This document shows positions 43,237 through 46,625 of a DNA stretch of 64,000 nucleotides, piece after piece. Location: NCBI GenBank assembly GCA_049287005.1, contig JBAQEZ010000003.1:329745-393744 (forward strand), given 5' to 3'. Both the position numbers and the translations under genes were made by a program. Source of the DNA: Candidatus Moraniibacteriota bacterium. Its GTDB lineage: Bacteria; Patescibacteriota; Minisyncoccia; Moranbacterales; UBA1568. The stretch's first letter is position 1. Each line of letters opens with the position of its first letter. The notes under the pieces are model-generated. The model was given only the letters and a program-made list of their open reading frames with translations, was not told the origin of the DNA and did no database searches.

Positions 43237-44735
43237 TCTTATTGAGAGTTTGATCCTGGCTCAGGATGAACGCTGGCGGCGTGGATAAGGCATGCAAGTC
43301 GAATGGGTTTAGACCCATGGCAAACGGGTTCGGATAACATAGGAATTTTCCCTAAAGTCGCGGATAATCCAGAGAAATTTGGAATAATACGCGATATGCT
43401 CTACGGAGTAAAGATTTATCGCTTTAGGAGAAGCCTGTGTCCTATCAGCTTGTTGGTGAGGTAATAGCTCACCAAGGCTATGACGGGTAGGGGGTGTGAG
43501 AGCACGGCCCCCAACATTGGAACTGAGACACTGTCCAAACACCTACGGGTGGCTGCAGTCGAGAATATTCCACAATGGACGAAAGTCTGATGGAGCGACG
43601 CCGCGTGCGGGATGAAGGTCTTCGGATTGTAAACCGCTTTTTTCAGGGAGCAATTTCGATGAGAGTACCTGAAGAATAAGAGGTTACTAACTCTGTGCCA
43701 GCAGTAGCGGTAATACAGAGACCTCAAGCGTTATCCGGATTTATTGGGCGTAAAGGGCAGGTAGGCGGATATGTTAGTCGGATGTTAAATCTCGGGGCTC
43801 AACCCCGAACAGGCATTCGAAACGGCATGTCTAGAGGATGTGAGAGATCAGTGGAATTTATGGTGTAGTAGTGAAATGCGTTGATATCATAAAGAACACC
43901 CAAGGCGAAGGCAACTGATTGGCACATATCTGACGCTGAGCTGCGAAAGCGTGGGGAGCGAATAGGATTAGATACCCTAGTAGTCCACGCCCTAAACGAT
44001 GCATACTAGGTGCAGGGAGAATCGACCCTTTCTGTGCCGGAGCTAACGCGTTAAGTATGCCGCCTGGGAAGTACGATCGCAAGATTAAAACTCAAAGGAA
44101 TAGACGGGGATCCGCACAAGTGGTGGAGCATGTGGTTTAATTCGACAGTAAGCGAGGCACCTCACCAAGGTTTGAAATCTAGCTGCAGAGCCCAGAAATG
44201 GGATGTCCTTCGAGGGTGCTAGACCAGGTGCTGCATGGTTGTCGTCAGCTCGTGTCGTAAGATGTTCCGTTCAGTCGGGAAACGAGCGCAACCCCTGTGA
44301 AGTGTTATATATGTCACTTCAGACTGCCCTCTCATTTGTTCAGAAACAATAGTGTTTGTGATCAGGTGAGAGGGAGGAAGGCGGGGATGACGTCAAATCA
44401 GCATGGCCCTTTGACACCTTGGGCGACACACGTGCTACAATGGCCGGAATAAAGGGTCGCCAAATCGCAAGATGGAGCCAATCCCAAAAATTCGGTCTCA
44501 GTTCGGATTGAAGGCTGCAACTCGCCTTCATGAAGCTGGAATCACTAGTAATCGTTGATCAGCCACGCAACGGTGAATGCGTTCTCGGATCTTGTACTCA
44601 CCGCCCGTCACACCAAGAGAGCCGGCAATACCAGAAGGCCCCGGGTCAAATCGGGGACGACGGTAGGGTTGGTAATAAGGGTGAAGTCGTAACAAGGCAT
44701 CCGTAGCGGAAGCTGTGGATGAATCACCTCCTTTC
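43237..44735 (+). rRNA. 16S ribosomal RNA (~1.5 kb), no intron evident
   Basis: 5' AGAGTTTGATCCTGGCTCAG. 515 region is GTGCCAGCAGTAGCGGTAATAC. 806 region is ATTAGATACCCTAGTAGTCC. 3' end is AAGTCGTAACAAGG...GGATCACCTCCTTTCT with the anti-SD CCTCC. Confidence 0.95.
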
Positions 44736-45112
44736 TAGGGAGATAAAGGTGTACGAATTCTGACTCAAAATCAGGTTCACAACCATTATGGTCGTTCATT
44801 ACGCTTTATCTGCAGACGTTTCGACGAAAGCAGACGTAGTAATGAAACATAATAGCATGGAGACTTACGCAAAGGACTAACCACAAAAGGTTTTGATTAT
44901 TGTTTATTTCGGTGAAAGCGCTCTTCAATGAGTAATCCCTCGCGAGGGGATTTCACCGGATAGGTTATCAGGCTTTACGCAACAGTATCCCAAGATAAAG
45001 GAATTTCTTCGGGTATTGCTGTAAGACATTGAAACTCGTCGCAAGACGGGTTTTCTTGTTTTTTGATAGCAAAGTTGACTTGAATAAAAACGAAGATTAT
45101 AATGGGCGTACT

Positions 45113-45376
45113 ATGAAAAAGAAGAAGCTCACGACTATTGAAGATTTGGCAGTACTCATGCCGAATGAGTTTTTAGTAATACAGGAAAGATTCGATGGTG
45201 TAGATAACCGTTTTGATCAGGTTGATAAGCAATTTGATGAGATCAAAGCAGGAATCAAAGAATTGCGCAGAGACATAGAAGATCTGAAACTGCGCACGGG
45301 GGAGATGGTATTTCGTTTTGAAATTAAGGAAATCGAAAAACGCCTGCGCAAATTGGAACTCAAACTGGTTAAATAA
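45113..45376 (+). CDS. small coiled-coil hypothetical protein (87 aa)
   Basis: Start moved to MKKKKLTTIEDL. Heptad-like Lys/Glu/Leu pattern. Located immediately downstream of the 16S gene, where a 23S gene would be expected. Confidence 0.35.
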   Translation: MKKKKLTTIEDLAVLMPNEFLVIQERFDGVDNRFDQVDKQFDEIKAGIKELRRDIEDLKLRTGEMVFRFEIKEIEKRLRKLELKLVK

Positions 45377-45406
45377 GATGAGAATTCTAACGAAGACCAG
45401 CTCGCA

Positions 45407-45445
45407 AGGGCTCCCTCCCATGGCGGGCAGGGTTTTTTGTTTGAC
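45407..45445 (+). repeat. 38-nt repeat element, copy 1 (GGGCTCCCTCCCATGGCGGGCAGGGTTTTTTGTTT)
   Basis: Near-identical copy at 52719-52758, with 33 of 38 nt shared. Both copies sit just after a stop codon and end in a T-run, which suggests a terminator-like role. Confidence 0.5.
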
Positions 45446-45563
45446 AATCTAAGGGAAAAGAGTAGCCTATTTTCAGAGTGTTTTTTCCTCAGGCATTGGG
45501 CCAAGGAAGGCATTTGAGGGGACCGCTAGAGTGCGGTAGATCCCGACAATAGGAGTAGTTCTT

Positions 45564-46625
45564 ATGACAACCAAAATCGGTAAGGGCTTGTGGCAGGAGG
45601 GTGTACACCCGCTGATTAACAGCATGGATGGCCACCTTCAGACCTGGTCACAGTGGAAAGATGAGTTCCGGAACGCCCGTCTCTGCGAGCACTATGAAAT
45701 GCTCATTCGTCGAGGATGGTGTATGGATACCGACGATATCCATGGCGAGGAATCCGTCGAGCGTATTCTGTTCTACTTGCGTATGGCCGAGGGTCATCTC
45801 ACGGCACGGACGCTTGAAAAGCCGGGCGACAGGCGTCATGAGTGGAGTGATATGCGGTCGTCGCTTTGGTGGAATTCTGGACGCGGTACCGATCGGGACT
45901 GGCGTCGGAACCTTGCCCATCTTGCGTACAAAGAGTTTGTCTACAATTTCTTGCGCGACCGGACCATCCGCAATAATGACGAGAGTCAGGCTTCCCGGTA
46001 CCCCTGGCTGAAGTGGATCGTTGACGAACGCGTTATGACGGCGCTTCTCCGCTTCTTCCGGATCGAAAGCGGTGTTATGCCGAACTTTCCAGTGACTGGT
46101 AACAGCGACGAGGACAAAAAAACGGCAGAGATCGTTACGGAAACCCTTGTCAATCTGAGCGCTGCCAAATGGCATATGGGCCATTACTATTCGATGGCAG
46201 GCAAGGAATTGCCCACGGAGTTTCTTGTCAAACACGCACTCACATTCCTGGAAATCCTTTTCGTATTGAAGCGGCTGGATGTCTTCGAGAGGAATGGGAT
46301 GTACATTGCTGGCTATACAAAACTCTCTGATTATGAATTGAGATTGTCGCCAGATGATCCGGGAGTGAAGTTTCCAGAGCCGATATGGTCGCCAATTCAC
46401 TTCGAGGAAACGGAGCTTGCGAAGCTTCGAGACCTGGCTCTTTATGAGCAGTTTGTTTTTCCCGAAGCACGGCTTATAAAGGATGGGTGGGGGCCTTATG
46501 CTTCCCACAGAAGTGAAAAACGAAATCCTGTTTCGATTCATGAGGCCATCACTGTTGTGAACTCCCAGATTGCGAAGATTTACACGCTGATCTGCAATCG
46601 GCAGGGCGTCGACTGGCGGCCATAG
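45564..46625 (+). CDS. hypothetical protein (353 aa), Trp/Arg-rich
   Basis: Long ORF with no recognisable motifs; followed by the terminator GGACGCACCCGCGTCCTTTTT at 46676-46698. Confidence 0.45.
   Translation: MTTKIGKGLWQEGVHPLINSMDGHLQTWSQWKDEFRNARLCEHYEMLIRRGWCMDTDDIHGEESVERILFYLRMAEGHLTARTLEKPGDRRHEWSDMRSSLWWNSGRGTDRDWRRNLAHLAYKEFVYNFLRDRTIRNNDESQASRYPWLKWIVDERVMTALLRFFRIESGVMPNFPVTGNSDEDKKTAEIVTETLVNLSAAKWHMGHYYSMAGKELPTEFLVKHALTFLEILFVLKRLDVFERNGMYIAGYTKLSDYELRLSPDDPGVKFPEPIWSPIHFEETELAKLRDLALYEQFVFPEARLIKDGWGPYASHRSEKRNPVSIHEAITVVNSQIAKIYTLICNRQGVDWRP

What the first reader, a model, noticed from the sequence alone, without database searches (positions are those of the whole stretch)
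43237..45564. 16S rRNA gene is unlinked from any 23S gene, and its universal-primer sites are mutated
Nearly all bacteria have tRNA-Ile/Ala and a 23S gene after the 16S 3' end (GGATCACCTCCTTTCT). Here the next 800 bp contain no tRNA and no 23S sequence, and protein-coding ORFs follow at 45113-45376 and 45564-46625. Within the 16S gene, the 515F site reads GTGCCAGCAGTAGCGGTAA where the consensus is CAGCCGCGG, and the 806R site reads GGATTAGATACCCTAGTAGTCC where the consensus is CCCTGGTAG. The 1492R region is also divergent (AAGGCATCCGTAGCGGAAGCTGTGG). This organism would therefore be poorly recovered by standard amplicon surveys.
Basis: partly seen in the sequence, partly recalled or inferred. 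Interest (0 to 1): 0.6.

Follow-up and report, generated by a model that had tools for sequence, protein, structure and literature searches.

The report
Stand-alone 16S gene of a Moranbacterium
This is an intact 16S rRNA gene of an uncultivated Patescibacteria (Moranbacteria) bacterium; its separation from the 23S gene and its altered 515F primer site are real, but both are normal, already published traits of this lineage.

Summary
A full-length bacterial 16S rRNA gene lies at 43238-44734 (+). There is no 23S, 5S, tRNA-Ile or tRNA-Ala anywhere in the 64 kb window. The quoted primer-site sequences are present.

The gene belongs to a Moranbacteria (Parcubacteria, Patescibacteria/CPR) organism, 96.5-98.4% identical to MAGs with that label. 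It looks like its own transcription unit:
- a near-consensus promoter;
- a leader-trailer helix that covaries across 25 sequences;
- a conserved intrinsic terminator, followed by a separate promoter for the next gene.

The primer-site changes keep the rRNA structure intact. C525U and C526A are matched by G506A and G505U in the 530-loop pseudoknot, and helix 45 is also compensated. Changes at the sites not used to select the loci recur in most related genomes. They are not sequencing errors.

- 806R has no mismatch to the degenerate primers actually used.
- 27F and 341F/805R match perfectly.
- Only 515F-type primers are hit, with 2 internal mismatches. 1492R has 2 mismatches near its 5' end.

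Unlinked rRNA genes in Patescibacteria and poor V4 primer coverage are both published, and a modified 515F already matches this site. The finding is real but already known, and of low interest.

The parts
42826..42854 (+). Sigma-70-type promoter-like site of the 16S unit: TTGACA, 17 nt, TATACT (11 of 12 matches).
   Evidence: A TTGAC[AT]-N16-18-TA[TC]A[CA]T site lies 110-596 nt upstream of the 16S (mostly 200-520) in 44 of 98 sequences, window included, including close relatives L006, L030, L012, L002. Function is inferred, not shown.
42930..42967 (+). Leader hairpin (AAAAGTC-TTCG-GACTTTT) followed by GCTCTGAAAGTAA. Possibly an rrn-leader boxB/boxA-like antitermination region.
   Evidence: Read from the sequence. 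A similar stretch is in the L006 leader. Its resemblance to E. coli boxA (GCTCTTTAACAA, found in L124 at 217 and 2223) is weak. This is inference only.
43036..43065 (+). Leader arm of the long-range helix that brackets the 16S (the processing stem). It can also fold into a local hairpin.
   Evidence: It forms a 30-nt inverted repeat, 90% complementary, with 44872-44901. Across 25 sequences, 85.1% of cells are paired against at most 46.5% when the partner is slid. 17 of 30 pairs change on both sides, and 0 of 500 shuffles reach this. The alternative local hairpin is also conserved: 90.2% paired, with pair 10-21 as AU in 12 sequences and GC in 8.
43238..44734 (+). 16S rRNA gene, 1497 nt, complete, with no large insertion.
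   Evidence: RF00177 at 1399.4 bits, model positions 1-1533. 97.9% identical to L090, 96.5% to L044 and 98.4% to L006, which are Moraniibacteriota or Minisyncoccota MAGs.
43685..43687 (+). E. coli positions 505-507 read UAC where E. coli has GGC. This is the 5' strand of the 530-loop pseudoknot.
   Evidence: Alignment to E. coli K-12 rrsB and the Rfam alignment. The pairs become U505-A526, A506-U525 and C507-G524. 89 of 120 loci with the same 525-526 variant have UAC at this offset. The pairing scheme 505-507 with 524-526 is from PMC7356742.
43695..43713 (+). 515F primer site GTGCCAGCAGTAGCGGTAA, carrying C525U and C526A.
   Evidence: Two mismatches to 515F and 515F-Y, at positions 9 and 8 from the primer's 3' end. 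By hand comparison it matches 515F_Mod (GTGYCAGMAGBNKCGGTVA, PMC10943839) perfectly.
43967..43986 (+). 806R primer site.
   Evidence: No mismatch to 806R, 806RB or 805R.
44327..44374 (+). Extended hairpin inside the 16S, with 22-nt arms. It aligns around E. coli positions 1149-1175, which I take to be the helix 40 region (helix assignment from my own knowledge).
   Evidence: z-score -4.6. The same site is expanded to about 110-205 nt in relatives L006, L030, L019, L076, L061 and L102.
44594..44608 (+). 1392R/1391R primer site with A1396U (window position 44598).
   Evidence: One mismatch. The same GTACTCACC sequence is in 67 of 68 related loci.
44684..44705 (+). 1492R primer site.
   Evidence: Two mismatches, 15 and 17 bases from the primer's 3' end. 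The changes sit in helix 45, which still folds as a 10-bp stem with a GGAA loop like that of E. coli. The identical sequence is in 43 of 73 related loci.
44872..44901 (+). Trailer arm of the processing stem.
44908..45022 (+). Conserved structured trailer. It holds a branched hairpin module (44908-44960, containing GCTCTTCAATGAG) and a second hairpin (about 44979-45022). Function unknown.
   Evidence: Fold z-score -4.45. The module recurs with compensatory stems in L006, L026, L069 (two copies) and L097 (two copies).
45031..45064 (+). Intrinsic terminator-like hairpin followed by a T-run. It ends the 16S unit.
   Evidence: -16.1 kcal/mol, z-score -4.4. It is conserved in L006 and has a compensated stem in L026 (CCGCC-GAAA-GGCGG).
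45075..45103 (+). Separate promoter-like site (TTGACT, 17 nt, TATAAT) for the next gene.
45113..45376 (+). 87-aa ORF of unknown function.
   Evidence: no Pfam match. It was called as a gene in the independent assembly L121.
45564..46625 (+). 353-aa ORF of unknown function.
   Evidence: The exact protein is present in GCA_049304235.1 and in Logan SRR28062879.

Best explanation
The region is the functional 16S rRNA gene of a Moranbacteria (Parcubacteria, Patescibacteria/CPR) bacterium. It is organised as a stand-alone transcription unit, not as part of a 16S-tRNA-23S-5S operon.

Proposed mechanism:
1. Transcription starts at a near-consensus sigma-70 promoter about 385 nt upstream (inferred).
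2. The leader (43036-43065) and trailer (44872-44901) pair into a long helix that brackets the 16S (shown by covariation). By analogy with E. coli rrn operons, this helix is the substrate for double-strand-specific processing that releases pre-16S (inferred).
3. Transcription ends at an intrinsic terminator at 45031-45064 (inferred from the sequence and its conservation).
4. The next gene has its own promoter. The 23S and 5S genes must lie elsewhere in the genome; they were not located.

The 'mutated' universal sites are fixed signatures of the lineage that keep rRNA structure intact. C525U and C526A are compensated by G506A and G505U, so the 530-loop pseudoknot still forms. The helix 45 changes are also compensated.

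Practical consequence: 515F-type primers have two internal mismatches, while 27F, 341F, 805R and 806R match. All of this is the normal, published condition of the clade.
For: **The gene is intact and alone**
- Full-length SSU match, and no LSU, 5S or tRNA-Ile/Ala in 64 kb.

**Lineage**
- 96.5-98.4% 16S identity to MAGs labelled Moraniibacteriota or Minisyncoccota.

**Being unlinked is the clade's norm**
- 47 species-representative loci have a complete 16S 3' end and at least 1500 nt downstream. In 44 of them there is no 23S within 1500 nt. This includes all 29 loci that are more than 85% identical to the window.

**The assembly is sound**
- The junction from the 16S 3' end into the ORFs is 100% identical in two other assemblies.
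- The 491-aa upstream neighbour is syntenic with the 16S in 20 related loci.

**Transcription-unit anatomy**
- Promoter, terminator and next promoter.
- The promoter motif recurs upstream of the 16S in 44 of 98 sequences (window included).
- The terminator is conserved, with a compensated stem in L026.
- The leader-trailer helix has 17 of 30 pairs with changes on both sides, and no shuffle of 500 reaches that.

**Structure is preserved at the variant sites**
- 505-507 reads UAC opposite 524-526 GUA.
- Helix 45 still folds like that of E. coli.

**The variants are lineage-wide at sites not used for selection**
- GAATAGACGG in 92 of 96 loci, GTACTCACC in 67 of 68, and the helix 45 sequence in 43 of 73.

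**Primer arithmetic**
-.

**Literature**
- Patescibacteria are listed among clades with exclusively unlinked rRNA genes (10.1101/705046).
- The V4 primers cover 19.6% of Patescibacteria and 6.3% of Parcubacteria, and 515F_Mod adds degeneracy at positions 11-13 among others (PMC10943839; PMC13271367; PMC5644168).
Against: - The 23S and 5S genes of this genome were not found, because only the window is available. 'Unlinked' is shown as absence within +19 kb and -43 kb, not as a mapped distance.
- Promoter, terminator and processing are inferred from sequence, conservation and covariation. No transcript data were used.
- The 120 comparison loci were chosen because they carry the same 515 variant. 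They are a biased sample of Patescibacteria, and conservation of that particular site among them is circular.
- Brewer et al. link unlinked rRNA genes to loss of RNase III. Which enzyme cuts the helix here is unknown.
- The leader arm can also form a conserved local hairpin, so the distal half of the long helix may not be the only structure.
Confidence: 0.9

Rival explanations
1. Assembly artefact: the contig is mis-joined or collapsed at the 16S 3' end, and a 23S gene really follows.
For: rRNA genes are common assembly break points. The short-read assembly contig L121 does start inside the 16S, at window position 44547.
Against: - Two other assemblies (NCBI GCA_049304235.1 and Logan SRR28062879) carry the same path from the 16S 3' end through the trailer into the ORFs, at 100% identity.
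- The trailer, with its stem arm and terminator, is homologous in relatives that also lack a 23S.
- A terminator and a fresh promoter separate the 16S from the ORFs.
- 44 of 47 related loci are unlinked.
Confidence: 0.02
2. The primer-site differences are sequencing or assembly errors, or the gene is a decaying pseudogene copy.
For: The changes hit some of the most conserved positions of 16S rRNA: 525, 526 and 1396.
Against: - Every change in a paired region is compensated: the 530 pseudoknot, helix 18 (514/537) and helix 45.
- Changes at sites not used for selection recur in 43-92 independent genomes.
- The covariance-model match is full length at 1399 bits.
- The anti-Shine-Dalgarno tail (CACCTCCTTTCT) and the GGAA loop of helix 45 are intact.
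- A published primer redesign targets exactly these positions.
Confidence: 0.02
3. The trailer (44735-45064) is a truncated remnant of a former 16S-23S spacer, left by a recent rearrangement specific to this species. On this view it is not an anciently stand-alone unit.
For: - A GCTCTTCAATGAG motif in the trailer matches the E. coli boxA core at 9 of 12 positions. E. coli has one boxA in the leader and one in the spacer.
- The linked relative L050 has CTCTTAACAAG just before its 23S.
- Genes downstream of the trailer are not syntenic among relatives, whereas the upstream neighbour is.
Against: - All 29 relatives above 85% identity are unlinked, so the separation is old and not species-specific.
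- The motif appears to lie in a small hairpin whose stem covaries: GCTC/GAGC becomes GCCC/GGGC in the second copy in L069. That argues against a single-stranded boxA.
- The motif is absent from the closest relatives L090 and L044.
Confidence: 0.06

Closest known systems
[quoted passage not shown]
   Same: There is no 23S within 1500 bp of the 16S 3' end. The trait is phylogenetically conserved, and Patescibacteria is named as a clade with exclusively unlinked genes. Here 44 of 47 related loci are unlinked.
   Different: Nothing essential differs. That paper links unlinking to loss of RNase III. Here a covarying leader-trailer helix is retained, which suggests double-strand processing persists.
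Poor coverage of Patescibacteria by 515F/806R, and the redesigned primers 515F_Mod/806R_Mod (Hu et al. 2024, PMC10943839; V4-EXT, PMC13271367; Schulz et al. 2017, PMC5644168; Brown et al. 2015, Nature, cited from my own knowledge)
   Same: The mismatches fall at 515F positions 11 and 12. These are among the positions made degenerate in 515F_Mod (GTGYCAGMAGBNKCGGTVA), which matches this site perfectly by hand comparison.
   Different: In this organism 806R, 805R, 341F and 27F are unaffected, so it is less 'invisible' than many CPR lineages. It also lacks the long 16S insertions described for CPR.
E. coli rrn operon architecture: leader boxA, an RNase III processing stem formed by sequences flanking the 16S, and a spacer boxA
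   Same: A long helix forms between sequences upstream and downstream of the 16S. There is a hairpin plus a GCTCT motif in the leader.
   Different: There is no spacer tRNA and no 23S or 5S. The unit ends in an intrinsic terminator about 300 nt after the 16S. The enzyme that cuts the helix was not identified.
The 530-loop pseudoknot of 16S rRNA, 505-507 paired with 524-526 (Woese & Gutell 1989 and Powers & Noller 1991 from my own knowledge; PMC7356742; PMC9014874)
   Same: Three pseudoknot pairs can form.
   Different: Two of the pairs, which are normally G-C, are U-A and A-U here. PMC9014874 describes the element as a coaxial all-G-C helix. 89 of 120 loci with this variant share the UAC/GUA state.

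Membership tests
Bacterial small-subunit rRNA (Rfam RF00177) | Full-length match to the covariance model above its gathering score | tested here: met
   1399.4 bits against a gathering score of 50, model positions 1-1533 of 1533, not truncated.
Bacterial small-subunit rRNA (Rfam RF00177) | Functional core elements intact: 530-loop pseudoknot, helix 45 with its GGAA loop, and the anti-Shine-Dalgarno 3' tail | tested here: met
   The pseudoknot is kept by double compensation. Helix 45 folds as a 10-bp stem with a GGAA loop. The 3' end reads CACCTCCTTTCT.
Unlinked rRNA gene (criterion of Brewer et al.) | No 23S within 1500 bp after the 16S 3' end | tested here: met
   No LSU match by Rfam or blastn anywhere in the window, that is for at least 19.2 kb downstream. 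The criterion is quoted.
Unlinked rRNA gene (criterion of Brewer et al.) | A 23S gene exists elsewhere in the same genome | not testable with these tools
Canonical rrn operon (16S, tRNA-Ile/Ala, 23S, 5S) | Spacer tRNA(s) and a 23S directly downstream of the 16S | tested here: not met
   Instead there is a terminator at 45031-45064, and protein genes follow.
Patescibacteria (CPR), Parcubacteria group, Moranbacteria | 16S rRNA closest to named members of the group | tested here: met
   97.9% to L090, 98.4% to L006 and 98.5% over the first 1101 nt to L030, all labelled Moraniibacteriota or Moranbacteria. No formal SILVA or GTDB tree was built.
CPR-type 16S rRNA with long insertions or introns (Brown et al. 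2015, from my own knowledge; mentioned) | Insertions of hundreds of nt, some encoding homing endonucleases | tested here: not met
   The gene is 1497 nt. It has only an extended hairpin of about 48 nt at 44327-44374. Relatives do carry such insertions, for example L006 with a 2533-nt gene and a 146-aa ORF bearing a LAGLIDADG-like motif.
rRNA processing stem (leader-trailer helix, as in E. coli pre-16S) | Long-range complementarity of the sequences flanking the 16S, supported by covariation | tested here: met
   30 nt at 90% complementarity. 85.1% of cells paired against at most 46.5% in the slid controls, and 17 pairs with changes on both sides.
rRNA processing stem (leader-trailer helix, as in E. 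coli pre-16S) | Cleavage by RNase III or an equivalent enzyme | not testable with these tools
   This needs mapping of transcript ends and the complete gene inventory of the genome.

The most novel reading that the evidence does not exclude
The stand-alone 16S units of this Moranbacteria subclade may carry uncharacterised regulatory RNA structure. Two candidates:
- A leader arm that can switch between a conserved local hairpin and the long-range leader-trailer helix. This could act as a co-transcriptional timer for 16S processing.
- A conserved branched module in the trailer (44908-45022), sometimes duplicated in relatives, lying between the processing stem and the terminator. It could be a binding site for an assembly, antitermination or quality-control factor.

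Separately, replacing two G-C pairs of the 530-loop pseudoknot with A-U pairs might measurably change decoding or sensitivity to aminoglycosides.
Probability: 0.12. Interest if true: 0.4.

Novelty: already known. Interest (0 to 1): 0.12.

Why it matters
It is a clear worked example of two published facts. First, Patescibacteria keep their 16S apart from the 23S. Second, 515F-based V4 surveys under-count them, while V3-V4 primers and redesigned V4 primers do not.

For annotation, the useful message is that an isolated 16S in such a genome is neither an assembly error nor a pseudogene.

Three small additions come out of this analysis:
- the explicit anatomy of the stand-alone unit (promoter, covarying processing helix, terminator);
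- the finding that the 515F-site changes are the compensated half of the 530-loop pseudoknot;
- an uncharacterised conserved module in the trailer.

None of these changes current understanding.

Tried and rejected
1. **Wrong E. coli reference.** The first reference for numbering (L123, strain SMBL) has an rrs copy of 1519 nt, and by eye its V3-V4 part does not look like E. coli. I discarded it and used K-12 rrsB (L124).
2. **Whole-flank duplex folding.** RNAduplex over the full 300-400 nt flanks first timed out. It then gave uninformative whole-flank pairings. I replaced it with motif-anchored arms followed by alignment and pair counting.
3. **BoxA reading of the trailer motif.** I considered GCTCTTCAATGAG to be a spacer-type boxA, since it matches the E. 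coli boxA core at 9 of 12 positions. I downgraded this. The motif appears to sit in a covarying hairpin and is absent from the nearest relatives.
4. **Rfam at permissive threshold.** Searching the leader and trailer at E-value up to 1 found only the SSU match.
5. **Locating the 23S.** This was not possible. The one genome-contig scan went to mapping the 515 variant, and loci are 8 kb blocks.
6. **Brown et al. 2015.** The paper is not in the library, so it is cited from my own knowledge only.
7. **Flanking ORFs.** Pfam gave no function for the ORFs either side of the 16S. I did not pursue them further because they are peripheral to the finding.
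Full report
**Observation.**
Rfam finds one complete bacterial SSU rRNA at 43238-44734 (+), scoring 1399 bits over model positions 1-1533. It finds no LSU or 5S rRNA anywhere in the window. ARAGORN finds only tRNA-Thr, Tyr, Thr, Trp and Glu at 23.9-26.3 kb. A blastn search (word size 7) with E. coli K-12 23S and 5S finds nothing in the 64 kb. The quoted strings are all present: the 515F site at 43695-43713, the 806 site at 43965-43986, and the helix 45 / 1492 region at about 44684-44721. 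The two ORFs exist and were also called as genes in an independent assembly. One small correction: the 3' end reads GGATGAATCACCTCCTTTCT.

**Whose gene it is.**
Going by the record titles, most are Patescibacteria: Moraniibacteriota, Paceibacterota, Saccharibacteria, Minisyncoccus and others. The window's 16S is 97.9% identical to L090 and 98.4% to L006, both labelled Moraniibacteriota, and 96.5% to L044, labelled Minisyncoccota. The organism is therefore a Moranbacterium in the Parcubacteria group of the Patescibacteria/CPR. The exact 353-aa downstream protein occurs in GCA_049304235.1 and in a Logan assembly of SRR28062879, so the same species is already public.

**Is the unlinked state real?**
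Both of those assemblies are 100% identical to the window from inside the 16S 3' end, through the trailer, into the ORFs. Upstream, a 491-aa protein (39739-41214, minus strand) is syntenic with the 16S in 20 related loci. Of the 120 loci, 47 have a complete 16S 3' end and at least 1500 nt downstream. In 44 of these no 23S lies within 1500 nt, and that includes all 29 that are more than 85% identical to the window. A search with E. coli and CPR 23S queries found a 23S in only four loci. Three of those four keep tRNA-Ile and tRNA-Ala in the spacer. This shows the search can detect linkage where it exists. The sample is biased, because the loci were selected by the 515 variant. Even so, it shows that unlinked 16S is the normal state of this clade.

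**How the unit is built.**
- A near-consensus promoter (TTGACA, 17 nt, TATACT) lies at 42826-42854. Similar sites lie upstream of the 16S in 44 of 98 sequences (window included), at 110-596 nt and mostly 200-520 nt.
- A 30-nt leader segment (43036-43065) is 90% complementary to a trailer segment (44872-44901).
- I aligned these arms from 25 sequences. 85.1% of cells pair, against at most 46.5% when the partner is slid by 1-3 columns. 17 of 30 pairs change on both sides, and none of 500 shuffles reaches this. The ten pairs nearest the 16S can only form by long-range pairing.
- The distal part of the leader arm can instead form a conserved local hairpin, which is 90.2% paired. There may be a structural switch here.
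- After the trailer arm comes a strongly folding stretch with a z-score of -4.45.
- An intrinsic terminator follows at 45031-45064. It is conserved in L006 and has a compensated stem in L026.
- A separate promoter (TTGACT, 17 nt, TATAAT) at 45075-45103 precedes the 87-aa ORF.

The helix is shown by covariation. The promoter, terminator and processing by a double-strand-specific RNase are inferred from sequence and by analogy with E. coli.

**The 'mutated' primer sites.**
Numbering comes from an alignment to E. coli K-12 rrsB.
- **515F site.** It carries C525U and C526A. Positions 524-526 pair with 505-507 in the helix 18 pseudoknot (PMC7356742; PMC9014874). The window has UAC at 505-507 where E. 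coli has GGC, giving U505-A526, A506-U525 and C507-G524. 89 of 120 loci with the variant share this state.
- **Helix 18.** Positions 514 and 537 are also compensated.
- **Helix 45.** The changes under the 1492R footprint keep a 10-bp stem with a GGAA loop.
- **Sites not used for selection.** GAATAGACGG (907/926 site) is in 92 of 96 loci. GTACTCACC (A1396U) is in 67 of 68. The helix 45 sequence is identical in 43 of 73.

These are fixed, structure-preserving signatures of the lineage, not errors.

**Primer consequences.**

| Primer or probe | Mismatches | Position |
|---|---|---|
| 515F, 515F-Y | 2 | 9 and 8 from the 3' end |
| 519R | 2 | 8 and 7 from the 3' end |
| 534R | 2 | 9 and 8 from the 3' end |
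| 806R, 806RB, 805R | 0 | the differing base is at a degenerate position |
| 27F | 0 | |
| 341F (degenerate) | 0 | |
| 907R, 926R | 1 | 15 from the 3' end |
| 1391R, 1392R | 1 | 6 and 5 from the 3' end |
| 1492R | 2 | 17 and 15 from the 3' end |
| EUB338 probe | 3 | |
| EUB338-II probe | 0 | |

The organism should be under-recovered by 515F-based V4 and V4-V5 sets. It should not be under-recovered by 341F/805R.

**Comparison with what is known.**
- Brewer et al. report that unlinked rRNA genes are widespread. They name Patescibacteria among the clades with exclusively unlinked genes (10.1101/705046).
- Hu et al. 2024 report that 515F/806R covers 19.6% of Patescibacteria and 6.3% of Parcubacteria, and that V3-V4 covers 55.6% of Parcubacteria. 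They introduced 515F_Mod (GTGYCAGMAGBNKCGGTVA) with degeneracy at positions 11-13 among others (PMC10943839). By hand comparison that primer matches this site perfectly.
- PMC13271367 and PMC5644168 make the same general point.

Both halves of the finding are therefore already described for this lineage.

**Verdict.**
The 806R claim is wrong, the 1492R claim is weak, and 'nearly all bacteria' is overstated. The phenomenon is already known, so interest is low. The only mildly new items are the explicit unit anatomy, the compensated A-U pseudoknot, and an uncharacterised conserved module in the trailer.

Noticed in passing
window 44908-45022; also L006 about 4130-4250, L026 about 1340-1470, L069 about 1490-1640, L097 about 5400-5560: There is a conserved, strongly folding module in the 16S trailer, between the processing-stem arm and the terminator. 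It has an outer stem, a small GCTC-UUCAAU-GAG hairpin and a GC-rich hairpin, followed by a second hairpin. It is duplicated in L069 and L097 and absent from L090 and L044. It has no Rfam match, and its function is unknown.
   Followed up: partly
window 43036-43065: The leader arm of the processing helix can also fold into a conserved local hairpin (90% paired across 25 sequences, with AU/GC covariation at one pair). It excludes the distal half of the long-range helix, so this may be a co-transcriptional switch.
   Followed up: partly
L006 2458-2567 and 2804-3756 (ORF 3249-3689); also L030, L019, L076, L061, L102, L041, L020: Close relatives carry insertions in the 16S at two hot spots. The first is the hairpin equivalent to window 44327-44374, which is 110-205 nt long in relatives. 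The second lies between E. coli positions 1399 and 1400, where insertions are 457-953 nt. In L006 this second insertion encodes a 146-aa ORF with a LAGLIDADG-like motif (IVGLVDGEGSF). The window's gene lacks these insertions.
   Followed up: partly
L069, L036, L054, L005, L022, L024 and others (record titles): Many TPA MAG records titled 'uncultured Bdellovibrionales' or 'Pseudobdellovibrionaceae' carry 16S genes 90-97% identical to this Moranbacteria 16S. Some records titled Pacearchaeota, Veillonella, Christensenellaceae, Micavibrio or Thermodesulfobacteriota also carry the variant. These are probably mislabelled records or binning contamination.
   Followed up: no
L004 (Veillonella MAG contig CAKAGN010000001.1): This 16S has the GTAGCGG variant at 524-527 but keeps GGC at 505-507, so the change is not compensated. 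It may be an assembly error or a chimera.
   Followed up: no
L123 4499-6017 (E. coli strain SMBL, NZ_CP061914.1): This annotated rrs copy is 1519 nt, and by eye its V3-V4 region does not look like E. coli. It may be a chimeric or contaminated rRNA copy in a RefSeq 'complete' genome.
   Followed up: no
window 13140-13175: An intergenic hairpin (GTGAAAGCTCTTCAATAAGAGCTTTTT) shares the GTGAAAGC...CTCTTCAAT string with the 16S trailer module. With one mismatch allowed, the motif occurs 3 times in the window against 0.17 expected by chance.
   Followed up: no
window 1-64000: GC skew is positive in every 2-kb bin across the whole window (cumulative 3.5), whatever the gene orientation. G+C is about 50%, which from my own knowledge is high for Parcubacteria.
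   Followed up: no
window 822-9783: Two very large ORFs without Pfam matches (881 and 928 aa) are followed by an 831-aa protein with matches to type IV secretion coupling protein domains (TraG-D_C, TrwB). This would fit the type IV secretion system described for Patescibacteria.
   Followed up: no
window 26557-27885, 56394-57944, 59056-61950: Purine-nucleotide synthesis genes are present: purD, a guaA-like gene and a purL-like gene. From my own knowledge, many Patescibacteria lack this pathway.
   Followed up: no
window 23905-26275: In the tRNA cluster Thr-Tyr-Thr-Trp-Glu, the gap between tRNA-Thr(GGU) and tRNA-Trp holds only a 216-aa ORF with a weak HTH_23 match. From my own knowledge, many bacteria have tuf at this position.
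   Followed up: no
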